Of a stretch of 64,000 bases of DNA, positions 26,846 through 53,524 are shown one piece after another (position 1 is the first letter of the stretch; each line of letters begins with the position of its first letter). The notes beneath the pieces are model-generated. The model saw nothing but the letters and a program-made list of their open reading frames with translations. It ran no database searches and was not told the origin of the DNA. The position numbers and the translations under genes were made by a program. Origin of the DNA: Octopus vulgaris (Eukaryota); the NCBI GenBank assembly GCA_951406725.2, contig OX597819.1, positions 129,332,001-129,396,000 on the forward strand, written 5' to 3'.

Positions 26846-27062
26846 GTATGTATATATATATATATATATGTATGTATATTTATGTATGTATTTATGAATA
26901 TGTATATATATATATATATGTATGTGTATATATATATTTATGTATATATATATATATGTATGCATATGTATGTGGTGCTATTAAGTTAGACATGGCCTGG
27001 GCCAATAATGGCCGAAACCTATCAAAGTATCAAAGTATATATGTATGTATATCCATATATTG

Positions 27063-27250: not shown

Positions 27251-27285
27251 ATTTAACGTTTCGAGCGGAGCTCTTCGTCAGAAAC
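27251..27285 (-). ncRNA. Minimal hammerhead ribozyme fold (C3-G8) in a ~200-bp TA-flanked repeat (27155-27360)
   Basis: Minus strand gttt-CTGACGA-a-gagc(tcc)gctc-GAAA-cg-T-T-aaat, with a palindromic stem III (ACGT). Confidence 0.7.
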
Positions 27286-27522
27286 ATAGGAAAACGAAAG
27301 ATCCAAGGAAGGGAAGACGGAGAAAGAAAGTCGCCACCGATACACACGAGGTCACATGTTGATATATATATATATATATATATATAAGAAAATAGTAAAG
27401 TGTGAAAAAACGACAGAAGGCTTAAATGTTAAAAAATATATATATTTGTGTCAAAATGTCTGGAGAATATTGGAAAAATTTTTTTTCCCTTTCCTTAAAA
27501 TGACATAATTTAAAAATTTTTA

Positions 27523-27562
27523 AAGAAATTACCGGTTTCGCGTGTAGCTTTTCAAATTTCTT
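27523..27562 (-). ncRNA. Minimal hammerhead ribozyme fold, U3-A8 core variant
   Basis: Minus strand aagaaat-TTGAAAA-gc(tacac)gc-GAAA-ccgg-T-A-atttctt gives a 7-bp stem I and a palindromic CCGG stem III loop. Confidence 0.7.
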
Positions 27563-27698
27563 GTGACGTTATGTTTATATTGCATGGAATTATCGTTGTT
27601 TTTATTTCCAGGAGATTTCTAAATAAGGGGAGGTAGTGAGTGATTTTTTCCGGTGTAGGGGAGATAATCGCTTAAAATTTTTTTTTCCCTTTTCCTTG

Positions 27699-28949
27699 TT
27701 AATTTCTCTGTGTCAGTATGTTCGGATGGTTGAGTCTGGGTTTGTACTTTTCAATGAAGAATGTTTCCTTGTTCAGTCTCATTTGTGTTGATGATCCGAA
27801 AGCACATTGGTAAAATGGGAAGATTAAAAATTGTGGCAGTAGTTGCTTTGCGCATTTCTCAATGTGCTCACTAAAAGGTATCATTCTATATTCTGGGAAT
27901 GCAATCTGTTGTCGATGCAGTGTGCATCTGCGCCTGAGTGATAGTCCCGTGGAACCCACGTAGTCTTGGTGGCAGCCCGAGCATTTAATAACATAAATTA
28001 TGTTTTCAGAGGCACAAGTAAAGTTAGATTTGATCTTAAATTTCTGTCCCTCTTTAAAGAAGAATTCTGATCCTTCCAATAGGTTAGGACATGTTGCACA
28101 GTTCGATCTACCACATTTTTTTACTTTTGCATCCGTAATTTTAGAAGACAATTTTGCCTTTGTGAGAATCTTTTTAAGTGATTTAGGCTGTTTGTAGCTT
28201 TTAATGATTTGGTGTATGTTTAGAATTTCCTTTAATTTTGGGTTTTTATGAAGTATTGGTAAATTCTGGGTGATGATGGTGAAGGCTTCTTTGTTTCTGG
28301 GGTTGTATGTAGATATGTAAGGTAGTATTTTCGGGGAAGGTGTGTTGTTGTGTTGAACTTTTCTTAAAGTTTCTATGTTGATTTCTGTTGCACGTCTGAT
28401 CCCATCCTCTATGAGTTGAGCTGGGTAATGTCTGTCAATTAGGGTGTTTTTGAGTTCTTGCAGTCTAAAGTTCCCGGTATTTTGTTCTGACACTATTGTG
28501 CATATCCTTCTTGCAAGGTTGAAGGGGATGTTTGTTTTAGTGTGTCTTGGGTGGCATGAATTAAAAAGAAGGTATTGTTTGGCGTCTGTGGCTTTGTAAA
28601 AAATGTCTGTTTCTATTTTAAGGTTAATTTTTTTAATTAGTATATCCAAGAACGGGAGCTCCTTTTGGTTGTATTCCATTGTGAACTGTATATTTGGGTT
28701 TATGCTGTTCAATAGGTTTTTAAATTTTAGGAGTTTATCTATGTTTTCATTCCAGAGAATGAAACAATCGTCTAGGAATCGTTTCCAATTCTCTTTTATG
28801 TATTGAGAGAGGGAGTTTCCAAAGATTGATAGAGATTCCTGGTAAATGATTATTTCCATGTATCCCATTGTTAAGTTCGCAATGACTGGTGCTGCCCTTG
28901 TACCCATAGCAATTCCGGATTTTTGACGGTAAAATGTATTGTCAAACAT
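27699..28949 (-). CDS. Penelope-like reverse transcriptase / GIY-YIG endonuclease (C-terminal 416 aa, uninterrupted)
   Basis: [32 protein letters not shown], then C..C..C and NIIYVIKC..C...YVGSTG..LRRR..LH. Confidence 0.9.
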
Positions 28950-29165
28950 GAAGTGGTTATTGTGTAGGATGAATTCAACTGATTTAGTAATGAATTCCTT
29001 ACTGATCCCTTTTGGTATTTCTTCCGGAAATTGGTTAGCCAGTTGCTTAGCCAGATATAATACCTGTACATCATCTCCAAACCTTCTAATATATGTATAT
29101 ATAGGTAGGTATGTATGTATGTATATATATGTATATATATATGTATATATATATGTGTATGTATA

Positions 29166-29258
<93 letters not shown>

Positions 29259-29519
29259 GTATGTATATATATATATATATGTATGTATATTTATGTATGT
29301 ATTTATGAATATGTATATATATATATATATATGTATGTGTATATATATATTTATGTATATATATATATGTATGCATATGTATGTATATGTATGTACCTAT
29401 GTATATATATATTTATATGTATGTATATATGTATGTATATATATGTATATATATGTATGTATGTATATATGTATACATATATGTATATATGTGTGTGTGT
29501 GTATTGTGTGTGTGTGTGT

Positions 29520-32125
29520 AAAAGACAAAAAAGAGTAAAAAAACTACAGAATGCTTGTGTTATATGGTTAAAGAATATATTTAAATCGTTATGTTAGAAA
29601 AATGTTATGAAATTTTGCATATAGTAACATTGTTTTAGGAGAAATAACCGGTTTCGTATTTTCTTTTCAAATTTCTCAAATTTCTTTACCTATATTGTGT
29701 CATGTCTTCGCTATGTTGTGAAATATGGAGTTCCAGGCAGGAATAGGTAATCAATGATTTTTTCCGGTATAAGGGAGATAATCAAAAATGTTGGGAATGA
29801 CTAGGTTTTATTAATTTTACAGGATTTGGTTTAGAAGGAATAGAATGTTACAAGTGGTTAGGTTTTGCTTTATATTTTTGTCAACGAGGTAAATTTCCTT
29901 ATTCAAAAATTTTAGAAATGGTTAAGTTTTGGCTTATATTTTTCAATGAAGAAGGTTTCCTTATTTAATCTAACTCGTGTTGGTGTTCCAATGGCACATT
30001 GATAGAATGGAAAGATTACAAATTGTGGTAGCAGTTGCTTTGCGCATTTATCAATATGTTCACTAAAGGGTACCATTTTGTATTCTGGGAATGCAATCTG
30101 CTGTCGATGCAGAGTGCATCTGCGTCTGAGCGATAATCCAGTGGACCTATGTAGTTTTGGTGGCAACCCAAGCATCTTATAATATAAATCAGGTTTTCTG
30201 AAGCACAAGTAAAGTCAGATTTGATTTTAAATTTTTGATCCTCTTTGAAAAGGTATTCTGATCCTTCTAAAAGTTTTGGGCATGTTGTGCAATTTGGTTG
30301 ATCACATTTTTTCACCTTTGCATCTGTTATTTTAGAAAATAAGTTTGCTTTTGTGAGGATCTTTTTTAGTGATTTCGGTTGTTTGTAGCTTTTAATGATC
30401 TTGTGTGTGCGTAAAATCTCCTTTAATTTGGGGTCCTTATGTAGCATAGGTAAATTTTGGGTGAAGGCTTCTTTGTTTCTGGGGATGTGTGTGGATATGT
30501 ACGGCAGTATTTTTGGGGAAGGTGTGTTGCTGTGTTGAACTTTTCTTAATGTTTCTATGTCGATTTGTGTTGCATGTCTGATTCCATCCTCTGTTAGTTG
30601 AACTGGGTAGTGTCTGTCAATTATGGTGTTTTTGAGTTCTTGCAGTCTAAAGTCTCTGGTGTTTTTTTTCTAACACTATTGTGCATATATGTCAGTTTCT
30701 ATTTTTAGGTTTATTTTTTTAATTAGTATATCCAAGAATGGGAGCTCCTTTTGGTTGTACTCCATTGTGAACTCTATATTTGGGTTGACGCTGTTCAATA
30801 GTCTTTTGAATTTCAGGAGTTTATCTGTGTTTTCATTCCAGAGGATGAAACAGTCGTCTAGGAATCTTTTCCAATTTTCTTTTATGTATTGGGAAAGGGG
30901 GTTTCCAAAGGTAGATAAAGATTCCTGCTGGTATATTATTACCTCCAGGTAGCCCATTGTTAGGTTTGAAATGACTGGTGCTGCCCTAGTACCCATAACA
31001 ATTCCGGATTTTTGTCGGTAAAACGTTTTGTCGAACATGAAGCGGTTATTTCGTAGGATGAATTCAACCGATTTAGTTATGAATTCTTTACTGATCCGGA
31101 AATTGGTCCAGCCAGAACTGAAATGCCTCTAGTCCATAATTATGAGGTATACTGGTATATAAATTAACTACATCAAATGAGACCATGATTGTTTCTTCCG
31201 TAACTTTTTTTGGAAAGGGATTTAACATATCCAAGTCACCTCTGATGTGGCTATTGATGTGTTTAAGGAAGGGTTTCAGGAGGATGCCCATAAATAGACT
31301 GTTTCACAGGCTGGGCCAGCTACAATGGAATGTAGTTTTAGGTCCCCCGGGTTTGGTGTATGTATGTACGTCTTTGGTGATTTTTTAATGGATTCAGTTA
31401 CAATCTGGCTTTTGTGTATTTTTGGTAGACCATAGAAAGAGCTAGGTTTGCATTTAAAGTTTGTTAGAAAGTCAATTTCTTTGGTTGTCAGTTCTTTTCC
31501 ATGGTTTTAATTAGTGAGGACAGAGTTTTCATTATTTTATGTGGGGTGTAGTTTGTGATTTTTCGTAATGTTGACTGTCATTAAGCATGGATATTACTAG
31601 ATTTCTATAGTATAATATGTCCATTATTACCACCGCACTTCCTTTATATGCTTCCTTAATTGTTATATCTTCATCATTTTGAAGTTCTGTTAGTTCCTTC
31701 CATTGTGTAGTGCTAAAGTTTGAGTTAACTGTCTGTTTATGCATCGTGTGGTAGGGAAAGTTCTCAATGTGGTTGCAGAATTCATCAAGATTTTTATTTC
31801 TTCCTTTGTGGGGAATGTATTCACTTTTGTTTTTGACTAGTGAGTCATTTTCAGTATTGGAATTGGGTAATGCTTCTGTGAGTCTTAATTTTCTACAGAA
31901 TTCTATTATACTGTCCTTCACCTCATTTTGGTTGGCTCTGCATTGAGTTGGGATGAATTTATCCCTTTTGAGAGGATGCCTATTTTTATGTTTGAAAGGG
32001 GTTTAGTTGAAAGGTTAATTATCTATTATCTTCGGTTTTCCTGATCACCAGGTTCCAATCTGTGTCCTGGTGTCTCTGGTCTGGGGCTAAAAAATGTTGG
32101 TTGCAATTTTGTTTGCATGAGCTGT
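29520..32125 (-). mobile_element. Penelope-like retroelement copy 2 (longer, frameshifted)
   Basis: ORF pieces 31532-31921 (IKEAYKGSAVVIMD), 31088-31291 (SFDVVNLYTSIP), 30676-31038 (RFLDDCF) and 29912-30447 (GIY-YIG), homologous to copy 1. Confidence 0.92.
29639..29677 (-). ncRNA. Minimal hammerhead ribozyme fold, U3-A8 core variant (copy 2)
   Basis: Minus strand gagaaat-TTGAAAA-g(aaaata)c-GAAA-ccgg-T-T-atttctc. Stem II is reduced to 1 bp. Confidence 0.6.
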
Positions 32126-32157
32126 CTATACATATATATATATCATATATATACAAA

Positions 32158-48384: not shown

Positions 48385-50234
48385 TAGTAAGGTGAGAGTT
48401 GGCAATGATTACAGTGAAGAATTCCGGGTAGAGGTAGGAGTCCAAGGTTCAGTCCTCAGCTCCCTCCTATTTATCATAGTTCTCCAGGCAATAACAGAGG
48501 AATTCAAGACTGGATGCCCCTAAGAGCTCCTCTATGCTGACGACCTTGCTCTAATTGCTGAGTCACTATCAGAACTGGAGGAGAAGTTTCAGGTGTGGAA
48601 TCAAGGATTAGAATTGAAGGGCCTTAGAGTCAACCTAGCTAAAACAAAAGTACTAATAAGTAGGAAGGTAGACAAACCACAAACGCCTTCAGGTAGATGG
48701 CCCTGCTCGATCTGTAGAAAAGGCATAGGTAGAAACTCTATAGGATGTACCCAGTGTAAGCTATGGACACATAAGAGGTGCAGCAATGTCAAAGGAAGGC
48801 TAACTAGGAAAATAGTTTTTGTATGTGGCAGATGCTCAGGAGCAATAAACACTGAAAATCTGCAGAAAACAACTTCCATCACTTTCCAGGGAGAAAAACT
48901 AAAAGTAGTTGATAGTTTCCGTTACCTAGGTAACCAAGTCAGTAGCGGGGGTGGGTGTGCTGAAAGTGTAACTGCTAGAGTAAGAATAGCCTGGGCAAAG
49001 TTCAGGGAGCTCTTACCTCTGCTGGTGACAAAAGGCCTCTTGCTCAGAGTAAAAGGCAGACTGTATGATGCATGTGTACGAACTGCCATGCTACATGGCA
49101 GTGAAACATGGGTCGTGACTGCTGAGGATGTGCGTAAACTTGCAAGAAATGAAGCCAGTATGCTCCGATGGATGTGTAATGTCAGTGTTCATACTCGACA
49201 GAGTGTAAGTACCTTCAGAAAAAAGTTGGACCTAAGAAGCATCAGCTGTAGTGTGCAAGAGAGACGATTGCGCTGGTATGGTCATGTGGCGAGAATGGAT
49301 GAAGATAGGTGTGTGAAAAAGTGCCAATCCCAAGCAGTTGAGGGAACCCGTGGAAGAGGTAGACCCAGGAAAACCTGGGATGAGGTGGTGAAGCATGACC
49401 TTTGAACATTAGGCCTCACCGAGGCAATGACTAGAGACCGAGACCTTTGGAAGTATGCTGTGCATGAGAAGACCCGGCAGGACCAGTGAGTCCATCCCGT
49501 ATTCCTTGCCAGGGATGTAGCCAGCCCACTTATGCATGCCTTTCCTTCCTTGGACACGCGAAGACCTGTTGAGGCAAGCGAAGTTGAAATCGAACCTCAT
49601 CCGACAACAGGCACCAATGCCAACCTCCCTTCATTGGACACTAAACTGCTTGTGAAGACCTGTTGGGGCAAGTGAAATCGGAATCGAAATTGAACCAATC
49701 CTATGACTGGCACCCGGCAGTTGTCAGGGCCGCTGGACTGACTCCTGTGCAGGTGGCAAGTAAAGAAACACTGTTTTGACCCTGTGTTTGAGGAGACCTA
49801 TTGAGTCAAGTACATCAACATCAAAATCAATGGAAATTGTAGTTGTGATCCCTGTGCCAGTGGCACGTAAAAAGCACCAACCGATCGTGGCCATTGCCAG
49901 CCTCGCCTGACTCCTGTGCCAGTGGCATGTAAAAAGCACCATCTGAACGTGGCCAATGCCAGCACCGCCTTGACTATCTTCGGTGCCGGCGGCACGTAAA
50001 AAGCACCAATCCAATCGTGGCCGTTGCCAGCCTCGCCTGGCACCTGTGCCAGTGGCATGTAAAAAGTATCCACTACACTCACGGAGTGGTTGGCGTTAAG
50101 AAGGGCATCCAGCTGTAGAAACACTGCCAGATCAAACTTGGCCTGGTGCAGCCTTCTGGCTTCCCAGATCCCCGGTCAAACCATCCAACCCATGCTAGCA
50201 TGGAGAACGGACGTTAAACGATGATGATGATGAT
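48385..50234 (+). mobile_element. 5'-truncated RTE-clade LINE: RT C-terminal half, PHD-like insert, and long 3' UTR with (gat)n tail
   Basis: QGSVLS.LLF and LLYADDL (~48440-48550, preceded by a stop). ORF 48593-49405 contains FRYLG, LHGSETW, RLRWYGHVARM and RGRGRPRKTW. Confidence 0.92.
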
Positions 50235-52025: not shown

Positions 52026-53350
52026 TTAATGCATCTCAATAAAAGATTCTTCTTTTAGGGGTACGTGTCCTTTATAATCTATATTGTATTTAATTATGAT
52101 ACGAGCCGCCATGCACTGCAATGTAATGAAGTCAAGTGGTGATACTATATCGTGGATGGCTACACCCCGCAAGAGTTGCACAGGAGTTCTACCTTCGTTG
52201 TTTCGCATGTCTAAGTGCGCATGGCGGTGCAGAAGAAACTTTATCACATCAGACTGACAGTGTTTATTGTTAGTTGCTAGGTGAAGCGGTGTGTTGCCAT
52301 CACTATCGGTAGCGTTGACATTAGCACCTACTTCTAGTAATAAGTTTACAACGTCGGGGGACGGAAAACTGCAAACTGGGTAACGACCAACATTAGTGGT
52401 TTCCCGTGCACAGGCAAGATGGAGAAGAGTGTAGCCTTTTGTACATTTTGGGTACATTTGAACTAGCTGATACACTGTCTGTTTGAAAACATAGTCCTCC
52501 TCTTCGGATAACCCTTTCTGCTTCTGTATCCGACATATTAAACACAGCAAGTGTAGGATTATCACTAAGAGGCGATTAAATGAGCTGACATCACAGTCCT
52601 GAGCAACACATTTGGTGATGAGTTCATGCCCAATACGAAGTTCTTTAATGGCACGAGTGAACACCTCCATGATATCTCGGAATGCAACATTGTGCACTGG
52701 GTGGTGTTCATTGGTCATATAAGAGAAAAGTTCTGCAAAAGACAGAAAACTACTCTGGGTGTAAGAACTTAATGCCTCCAACACTTTCTGTTGGATATCA
52801 AGTGCATACATCCACAAGTCTATACAGCGATCAAAATTGCCCATATCTGCATAAAGGGCTCCTCTATATCTGATGTAATAGGAGGTGTCTGGGTGTGCAG
52901 GACCAAGGATTCGTTCTCGAACAAGTAGTGCTTGCATTCTCATATCATCGGGGTCAGATATTAGATCGTCCAGCTGTTTTTGCGTTCGCACTTCAACCGT
53001 GTTCTCATAGGCGGCAATAAGAGAGTGGTTTATTGGTTTCGGAATTGCAACACAATGAGATCTGTATCTTTCATCCATACCAAGGCGCCAAAACTTTAAT
53101 GCACCTAACATGTCCCTTTTTTTATCAACATAAGTCGCTCCAAGAAGCTCCAGGGCATCGATCTTTTCCGACCGAGTACAATCCGGCTGATTTATGAGAT
53201 ACTCGACCATTTTGGTGTAACCAGCCACAGCAGCTGCCAACAAAGGGGTCATACCATAGGCATCTTTTTCCATTTGGGCACTGTTTTTCAGGAGCATTTT
53301 CATGATGTCTAAACTACCAGACTCAGCACAATCATGCAGAGCCGTATTAC
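52026..53350 (-). CDS. fem-1: Fem-1 homolog (FEM1A/C-like ankyrin/TPR CRL2 substrate receptor), terminal coding exon
   Basis: Polypyrimidine tract + CAG acceptor (AG at 53352-53351), then (G)NTALHDCAESGSLDIMKMLL, DALELLGATYVDKKRD, DPDDMRMQALLVRERILGPAHPDTSYYIRYRGA, GNTPLH, TLQCMAAR and FIEMH*. The frame has no disruptions. Confidence 0.95.
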
Positions 53351-53524
53351 CTGGAAAAAAAAAAGAAGAAAAAAAGTAGAAATTAAATTTTGAAGAAAAG
53401 GAAAAAGAAACAATAAGGAATTATATATAATTTCAGCAAAATTTAGATTCAGATGAATATGGTACTTAAGTTAAAGGCACCAGAATTGTGTATGGTATTA
53501 TCCATATAAATCAAATGGGGTGAT

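What the first reader, a model, noticed from the sequence alone, without database searches (positions are those of the whole stretch)
27523..29677. Both Penelope copies carry a non-canonical U3-A8 hammerhead with stem covariation
Seen: downstream of each ORF, on the sense strand, stemI-UUGAAAA-stemII-GAAA-CCGG-U-H-stemI. The surrounding 3' regions are poorly conserved, yet the core and the CCGG palindrome are identical, and the outer stem I pair covaries (aagaaat/atttctt versus gagaaat/atttctc). Known: hammerhead C3 and G8 form a Watson-Crick pair, and compensatory swaps can retain activity. Standard CUGANGA searches would miss these. Inference: a Penelope lineage fixed on a variant ribozyme.
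Basis: partly seen in the sequence, partly recalled or inferred. Interest (0 to 1): 0.75.

Follow-up and report, generated by a model that had tools for sequence, protein, structure and literature searches.

The report
Penelope hammerheads with swapped core pair
Both jumping-gene copies carry a small RNA motif predicted to cut itself, with a swapped core base pair that is already in print; related jumping genes in the same genome carry all four versions of that pair, which suggests selection on the cutting shape, though cutting is untested.

Summary
Observation confirmed. Two minus-strand minimal type I hammerhead motifs with U3-A8 cores lie in the 3' pseudo-LTR region of two truncated Penelope-like elements. 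The variant is not new: natural U3-A8 was published in 2011, and in Penelope elements in 2014 (about 1,300 Schistosoma hits). The stem I swap is real but is one event between two subfamilies.

The wider result is better. In this genome one Penelope radiation has clades with U3-A8 (3,176 pattern hits), A3-U8 (893), G3-C8 (109) and C3-G8/U3•G8. I found no natural A3-U8 or G3-C8 in print, but the most relevant paper (Lünse 2017) was not held.

Against strict fixation: young sister subfamilies spread with U3•G8 and a one-base-short junction (832 hits). No cleavage evidence was obtained. None of the 16 earlier scan notes shown describes the 3-8 swap; some cover the related 359-nt retrozyme.

The parts
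27523..27562 (-). Minimal type I hammerhead motif 1: 7-bp stem I, U3-A8 core, 2-bp stem II, palindromic stem III, A17; predicted cut between 27530 and 27529
   Evidence: same 3-8 pair, outer pair and A17 in 30 of 30 family copies
29639..29677 (-). Minimal type I hammerhead motif 2: 7-bp stem I with outer G-C, U3-A8 core, 1-bp stem II, palindromic stem III, U17; predicted cut between 29646 and 29645
27380..29042 (-). Penelope-like element copy 1, 5'-truncated, young subfamily; 99.5% identical to the 3' 1.68 kb of the full-length copy in L238
27699..29057 (-). Open frame of copy 1 (452 aa, no start): end of RT with FLDD, thumb, CX4CxxC linker, GIY-YIG-like endonuclease with CxxC and two His
   Evidence: translation, motifs read by eye; Pfam RVT_1 above cut-off in longer sister copies
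27380..27677 (-). 3' region equal to the ~300-nt pseudo-LTR that is repeated upstream in full-length copies
   Evidence: 100% over 298 nt to the upstream repeat of L238
27634..27668 (-). Conserved non-coding block upstream of motif 1 (weak hairpin; role unknown)
   Evidence: 28 of 33 identical to 29750-29784; folds at -4.4 and -5.2 kcal/mol
29750..29784 (-). The same conserved block upstream of motif 2
29515..32127 (-). Penelope-like element copy 2, older subfamily, 5'-truncated, with internal deletions and broken frame; about 84% identical to copy 1's family
29097..29514 (.). (TA)n/(TG)n microsatellite between the two copies; (TA)n also flanks copy 1 at about 27360-27386

Best explanation
Both motifs are minimal type I hammerheads in the pseudo-LTR of a Penelope-like retrotransposon, predicted to cut slowly as a dimer and likely kept by selection on the active fold. 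Shown: full-length copies carry the motif twice, about 4 kb apart, once in each pseudo-LTR. Inferred: the two palindromic stem III segments of one transcript pair with each other, each core forms its U3-A8 pair in place of C3-G8, and cleavage after position 17 trims the element RNA out of a longer precursor, possibly helped by the element's own protein. The 3-8 pair has changed identity at least three times in this radiation while mostly staying complementary. That is what selection on the active-site geometry would give. The two window copies are themselves truncated relics.
For: Motifs exceed chance. L238 has two motifs 3,997 nt apart in 299-nt direct repeats plus an inverted truncated copy. 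Co-folding two copies of motif 1 gives the double-hammerhead arrangement at -15.5 kcal/mol against -4.0 for the monomer. Genome counts in one scaffold: with A8, U3 3,176 vs other 98; with C8, G3 109 vs 36; with U8, in a narrower scaffold, A3 893 vs 32; reversed-pattern controls 0-4. A3-U8 and G3-C8 motifs each lie 183-333 nt behind the endonuclease end of a related ORF in 11 of 30 loci. A tree of the C-terminal 176 aa gives separate G3-C8 (97/97), A3-U8 (98/96), C3-G8/U3•G8 (2 rows, 100/98) and U3 (100/98) clades. The first stem I pair also differs by class: U-A, C-G (25 of 30), A-U (28 of 30), G-C (29 of 30). The G3-C8 class has no C17 in 30 of 30 loci, fitting the reported inhibition by a 3-17 pair (PMC3884650 passages). 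The tandem retrozyme family also has a U3-A8 form.
Against: With G8, only 103 hits have C3 against 253 others. About 74 of the 100 listed others (counted by eye) are young U3•G8 subfamilies nested among the window's relatives; the copies measured are 96-99% identical to each other, and one full-length tandem and a 623-aa ORF were seen. 832 sister copies lack one base at the 17/1.1 junction. 24 of the 98 non-U3/A8 hits are one amplified C3·A8 retrozyme subfamily. Copy 1 can form U3-A17, which extends stem I and is favoured in the monomer (-4.0 vs -2.3 kcal/mol). Stem II is 1-2 bp. In one published pairwise scan only the G-C swap rescued activity (PMC9901934 passage). In another Penelope element, cleavage needed protein and was not needed for insertion in vitro (PMC11167929 passage). 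0 of 10 internal 5' borders in held loci fall at the cut site (small sample, biased towards copies with a whole motif).
Confidence: 0.58

Rival explanations
1. The hammerhead is real by descent but only weakly needed: mobility does not depend on cleavage, so impaired forms spread, and complementary 3-8 pairs are restored only under intermittent or weak selection.
For: Amplified U3•G8, slipped-junction and C3·A8 subfamilies. Cleavage dispensable in vitro and no RNA ends at the cut in Anolis PAc (PMC11167929). Craig et al. raise that hammerheads may merely parasitise these elements (PMC8557442 passage). No border at the cut site in held loci.
Against: Three large, internally diverse clades each hold a different Watson-Crick 3-8 pair, and G12-A14, the palindrome and stem I persist while the flanks fall to about 50% identity. 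Impaired copies could also be moved in trans or still cut in vivo.
Confidence: 0.29
2. The motif is kept as a non-catalytic RNA structure, such as a dimerisation or protein-binding signal near the reverse-transcription start, and 3-8 covariation reflects folding rather than cutting.
For: Short stem II; U3-A17 alternative pairing in the youngest family; a second conserved block and a 42-nt tail lie nearby; contigs from RNA-guessed runs run across the predicted cut.
Against: The 3-8 pair was seen in full-length but not minimal ground-state structures (PMC3884650 passage), so covariation there points to the catalytic conformation. Contigs cannot show RNA ends.
Confidence: 0.1
3. Chance matches or AT-biased decay of a canonical core, frozen by copy-number amplification.
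For: The genome is AT-rich, and near-copies inflate every count.
Against: Shuffle and reversed-pattern controls are near zero. G3-C8 and A3-U8 cannot arise from C3-G8 by C-to-T/G-to-A decay. Position behind the ORF is kept across clades.
Confidence: 0.03

Closest known systems
Minimal hammerheads of metazoan Penelope-like elements, including the U3-A8 variant of Schistosoma mansoni Cercyon (Cervera and De la Pena 2014, PMC4209133; read parts 1-2 of 4, supplement file 2 searched, file 1 not searchable)
   Same: Type I motif in the pseudo-LTR, palindromic helix III, G10.1-C11.1 pair, U3-A8 core (their S. mansoni families 3 and 4 begin with the same U3 core), mostly solitary copies and inverted pairs.
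   Different: Helix II is 1-2 bp here against 7-8 bp, there is no extra base between 9 and 10.1, and helix I is 7 bp. Sister clades have A3-U8 and G3-C8, which did not appear in the text or the searched supplement.
Natural U3-A8 hammerheads (Perreault et al. 2011, PMC3088659; passages read, 11 supplements searched by term with no hit)
   Same: States that C3-G8 covaries to U3-A8 in several natural examples; also reports 1-2-bp stems II and insertions before position 3.
   Different: Only U3-A8 is named in the passages seen; not tied to Penelope elements.
Small hammerhead variants of Penelope-like elements that cleave as dimers (Lünse, Weinberg, Breaker 2017, PMC5785218; not held, only its title seen in a reference list)
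   Same: By its title: small variants, Penelope-linked, dimeric cleavage.
   Different: Unknown. It may already list A3-U8 or G3-C8; this is the main gap in the novelty claim.
Anolis PAc Poseidon element hammerhead (PMC11167929; passages read)
   Same: Pseudo-LTR hammerhead; an engineered C3G/G8C double mutant partly restores cleavage; genomic tail signature.
   Different: Canonical C3-G8 in nature; different clade; assayed, protein-assisted and dispensable for insertion in vitro.
Neptune/Nematis-type endonuclease-positive Penelope-like elements (Craig et al. 2021, PMC8557442; passages read)
   Same: C-terminal GIY-YIG, CX2-5CxxC linker, partial tandems, inverted truncated copy, tail at one end, (TA)n targets.
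   Different: Two full-length copies here show a separate ~450-aa upstream ORF overlapping the RT ORF. The clade was not placed against reference sequences.

Membership tests
Minimal type I hammerhead of Penelope-like elements | Core N3-U4-G5-A6-N7-N8-A9 / G12-A13-A14 / A15.1-U16.1 / H17 with complementary 3-8 | tested here: met
   U3-A8 in both copies; an accepted variant in PMC4209133. Literal C3-G8 is absent.
Minimal type I hammerhead of Penelope-like elements | Short palindromic helix III that needs a second copy | tested here: met
   ACCGGU in both; co-fold gives intermolecular stem III.
Minimal type I hammerhead of Penelope-like elements | G10.1-C11.1 pair and helix I of 4 bp or more | tested here: met
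Minimal type I hammerhead of Penelope-like elements | Long helix II and an extra base between 9 and 10.1 (typical in Cervera 2014, not universal) | tested here: not met
   Helix II is 2 bp and 1 bp, no extra base; short stems II are reported in PMC3088659.
Minimal type I hammerhead of Penelope-like elements | Located in both pseudo-LTRs of full-length elements | tested here: met
   L238: two motifs 3,997 nt apart in 299-nt repeats.
Minimal type I hammerhead of Penelope-like elements | Self-cleavage after N17 | not testable with these tools
   Only contigs were available; the genomic-border proxy was negative but weak.
Endonuclease-positive Penelope-like element | Reverse transcriptase followed by C-terminal GIY-YIG with CCHH | tested here: met
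   RVT_1 above cut-off in L235, L243, L252; GIY-YIG only weak in Pfam (E 0.014-0.04 in 2 of 3); motifs read by eye.
Endonuclease-positive Penelope-like element | Pseudo-LTR partial tandems, inverted 5'-truncated copy, tail at one end | tested here: met
   two 3' ends, +149 and +191 from the cut.
Endonuclease-positive Penelope-like element | Single ORF | tested here: inconclusive
   L238 and L251 both show a separate upstream ORF overlapping the RT frame; only 2 full-length copies examined.
Neptune/Nematis clades | CX2-5CxxC linker before the endonuclease; (TA)n targets | tested here: met
   CX4CxxC in copy 1; flanks; definition from PMC8557442.
Neptune/Nematis clades | Placement in an RT phylogeny with reference elements | not tested
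   No reference elements were on hand; trees hold only G000 copies.

The most novel reading that the evidence does not exclude
One Penelope radiation in this animal genome has cycled the hammerhead's catalytic 3-8 pair through all four Watson-Crick identities, with A3-U8 and G3-C8 as the first natural high-copy families, a wobble intermediate caught while amplifying, and position 17 adjusted to avoid pairing with position 3. This would be direct evolutionary evidence that Penelope hammerheads are selected for the active conformation.
Probability: 0.45. Interest if true: 0.6.

Novelty: new member of a known kind. Interest (0 to 1): 0.4.

Why it matters
Whether Penelope hammerheads do anything for their elements is described as unclear (PMC8557442), and one was dispensable in vitro. 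Covariation at a pair tied to the active conformation argues for selection on catalysis, while the amplified impaired sisters show its limits. Together they form a ready natural allelic series to assay. In practice, core-fixed searches undercount: in one scaffold U3-A8 outnumbers C3-G8 3,176 to 103 in this genome. The window's own motif adds only a new host for a known variant.

Tried and rejected
Rfam scan of the window: no hammerhead family among the 150 rows shown of 314; the top rows were microsatellite-driven microRNA matches. Translation used a wrong frame; the right frame is. Pfam did not recognise copy 1's truncated frame. Idea that the outer-pair swap is an artefact of the 9-nt duplication in copy 2: rejected. 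RNA: no RNA holder listed on record; contigs of guessed-RNA runs cover the element and cross the predicted cut but cannot show ends or strand. Laying four runs on a G3-C8 locus gave nothing usable on positions 3 and 8. Clustered T>C differences in X2 were not taken as editing, because the same contig looks like a sister subfamily. A family with apparent C3/U8 (9 of 94 motif rows) has no stem I and was treated as not a hammerhead. A frequent U3-A8 family with 4-bp stem II and 2-3-bp stem I showed ORF matches in only 2 of 21 loci and was left out of the trees. Papers not held: Lünse 2017, Hammann 2012, Przybilski and Hammann 2007. Literature searches for prior art: U3-A8 gave 1 paper; C3-G8/A3-U8 gave 2 papers, neither with A3-U8; G3-C8 gave 1 paper, an engineered variant; C3U/G8A/G8C gave 1 unrelated paper; unhyphenated forms gave 0; hammerhead with octopus gave nothing relevant beyond Craig 2021 in 15 of 51 listed. 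bioRxiv supplements were not consulted.
Full report
Observation. A descriptor allowing any base at positions 3 and 8 returns four candidate rows in the window, of which only two have a Watson-Crick stem I. Both are on the minus strand, U3 at 27555 and 29670, with 7-bp stem I, core UUGAAAA, GAAA and the palindrome ACCGGU. Stem II is 2 bp and 1 bp. In 100 block-wise dinucleotide shuffles the mean count was 0.07 (stem I >=5) and none reached 2. Rfam listed no hammerhead among the 150 rows shown. Predicted cuts are 27530/27529 and 29646/29645.

Host elements. Both motifs lie behind the ORF of Penelope-like elements that are 84% identical where aligned. Copy 1 (27380-29042) keeps an open 452-aa frame with FLDD, a CX4CxxC linker and a GIY-YIG-like region (read by eye). 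It belongs to a young subfamily: the 40 best genome matches are 99-100% identical. Copy 2 (about 29515-32127) is broken and older, with relatives at 82-92%. Longer sister ORFs pass Pfam's RVT_1 cut-off, while GIY-YIG is weak. Locus L238 shows the full layout: two motifs 3,997 nt apart in 299-nt direct repeats and an inverted truncated copy. This matches the layout, linker and (TA)n preference described for Neptune/Nematis-type elements (PMC8557442 passages). The window copies are truncated, separated by microsatellite, and are not a pseudo-LTR pair. I take the host for an octopus-like animal from recall of its repeats and from genome size; that was not tested.

Family check. Among 30 loci of copy 1's family, 30 have U3-A8, an outer A-U and A17. 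Among 30 of copy 2's family, 27 have U3-A8, 23 an outer G-C, and only 12 keep the rest of the core and palindrome intact, as expected of decaying copies. The swap is therefore real but one event. Identity between the copies is 32/39 in the motif, 35/68 and 44/79 beside it, 28/33 in an upstream block and 485/588 in the ORF (segment borders chosen by me).

Prior art. Cervera and De la Pena found 'U3-A8 instead of C3-G8' in Schistosoma Cercyon elements and about 1,300 genomic hits (PMC4209133, parts 1-2 read). Perreault et al. reported natural U3-A8 in 2011 (PMC3088659 passages). The finding as written is thus a new instance of a known variant.

Following the 3-8 pair through the genome. A pattern free at 3, 7 and 8 gave 10,799 hits against 1,534 for the reversed control. 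I fetched 94 of the first 100 listed places: U-A 50, A-U 14, C-G 9, C/U 9 (one family with no stem I), U/G 5, others 7. Among the 48 with stem I >=3, 46 were Watson-Crick. Targeted counts in the scaffold G-N(3-12)-C: U3-A8 3,176 vs other/A8 98; G3-C8 109 vs other/C8 36; C3-G8 103 vs other/G8 253; and in a narrower scaffold A3-U8 893 vs other/U8 32. These count copies, not events. In the first 30 loci of each class, A3-U8 and G3-C8 motifs lay 183-333 nt behind the endonuclease end of a related ORF in 11 of 30 each. C3-G8 did so in 0 of 30, being 359-nt tandem retrozymes, but a small C3-G8/U3•G8 group is ORF-linked. A tree of the C-terminal 176 aa used 49 of 110 usable rows (at most two per motif type; 39 different, some identical rows being one locus fetched twice). 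It gave clades G3-C8 97/97, A3-U8 98/96, C3-G8/U3•G8 100/98 (two rows) and U3 100/98, with purine-3 and pyrimidine-3 clades split at 94/94 (one search agrees). The tree is unrooted, so the order of changes is open, but at least three changes of pair identity are needed. The retrozyme family has separately C3-G8 and U3-A8 tandem forms. G3-C8 loci have A17 in 29 and U17 in 1 of 30, never C17; A3-U8 loci have C17 in 29 of 30. This fits the proposed inhibitory 3-17 pair (PMC3884650 passages), but rests on one clade each.

Results against. U3•G8 subfamilies make up about 74 of 100 listed non-C3/G8 hits (counted by eye), nest among copy 1's relatives and are young: five copies with enough sequence are 96-99% alike and 91-94% to copy 1's family. 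They and several U3-A8 sisters lack one base at the 17/1.1 junction, 832 exact hits. One retrozyme subfamily has C3·A8 in 24 identical hits. Copy 1 itself can pair U3 with A17. A published pairwise scan of one hammerhead rescued only the G-C swap (PMC9901934 passages). The Anolis PAc hammerhead needed protein and was dispensable for insertion in vitro (PMC11167929 passages). Prompted by earlier scan notes on other families, I looked for copies starting at the cut site: 0 of 10 distinct internal 5' borders, in loci chosen for holding the whole motif (duplicates removed by eye, and two of the ten are probably subfamily divergence rather than truncation).

Mechanism. Shown: sequence, position, family states, paired motifs in full-length copies, predicted dimer fold. 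From established work: minimal Penelope hammerheads cut weakly and as dimers. Inferred: the two pseudo-LTR motifs of one transcript form a double hammerhead that trims the element RNA, under selection strong enough to restore complementarity over long times but loose enough to let wobble and slipped forms amplify. I put this at 0.58, a largely dispensable ribozyme at 0.29, a non-catalytic structure at 0.10.

Novelty. The window motif is a new member of a known kind. Natural A3-U8 and G3-C8 families did not turn up in my searches (supplement look-ups). However, Lünse 2017, Hammann 2012 and Przybilski 2007 were not held and one supplement file could not be searched, so absence from print is uncertain. 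Earlier scan notes on this genome concern rewired Naiad hammerheads and the 359-nt retrozyme; none of the 16 shown describes the 3-8 swap, and a word search found none.

Noticed in passing
L238 (minus, 5418-4066) and L251 (minus, 5026-3680): Both full-length copies have a ~450-aa upstream ORF with no Pfam match in L238 that overlaps the start of the RT frame by about 170 nt with the same frame offset. Endonuclease-positive Penelope elements are described as single-ORF.
   Followed up: partly
window 27251-27285, minus strand: A canonical C3-G8 minimal hammerhead-like motif (extra base after A9, 4-bp stem II, ACGU palindrome) in a different repeat just downstream of copy 1; read by eye and missed by my descriptor.
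   Followed up: no
window about 26990-27025, plus strand: A possible decayed hammerhead: GGCC stem II and GAAAC, with a shortened 5' core (by eye).
   Followed up: no
L249, L250, L256, L257, L201-L230: The 359-nt tandem retrozyme family occurs as C3-G8, U3-A8 and C3·A8 subfamilies, with stem I also changed between C3 and U3 forms: a second, independent 3-8 series.
   Followed up: partly
window 27634-27668 and 29750-29784, minus strand: Conserved 35-nt block about 75 nt upstream of each hammerhead, containing another ACCGG and a weak hairpin; role unknown.
   Followed up: partly
L061-L136 (21 loci): A frequent U3-A8 family with 4-bp stem II, 2-3-bp stem I and A17, rarely beside an ORF (2 of 21); possibly a non-autonomous derivative.
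   Followed up: partly
family A loci, e.g. L002, L231, L238: Copies end at either +149 or +191 from the predicted cut, a 42-nt tail present at one end of insertions, as described for Penelope elements.
   Followed up: yes
window 52026-53420 (minus) and 48524-49405 (plus): An ankyrin/TPR-repeat open frame and an RT fragment followed by a PHD-like finger.
   Followed up: no
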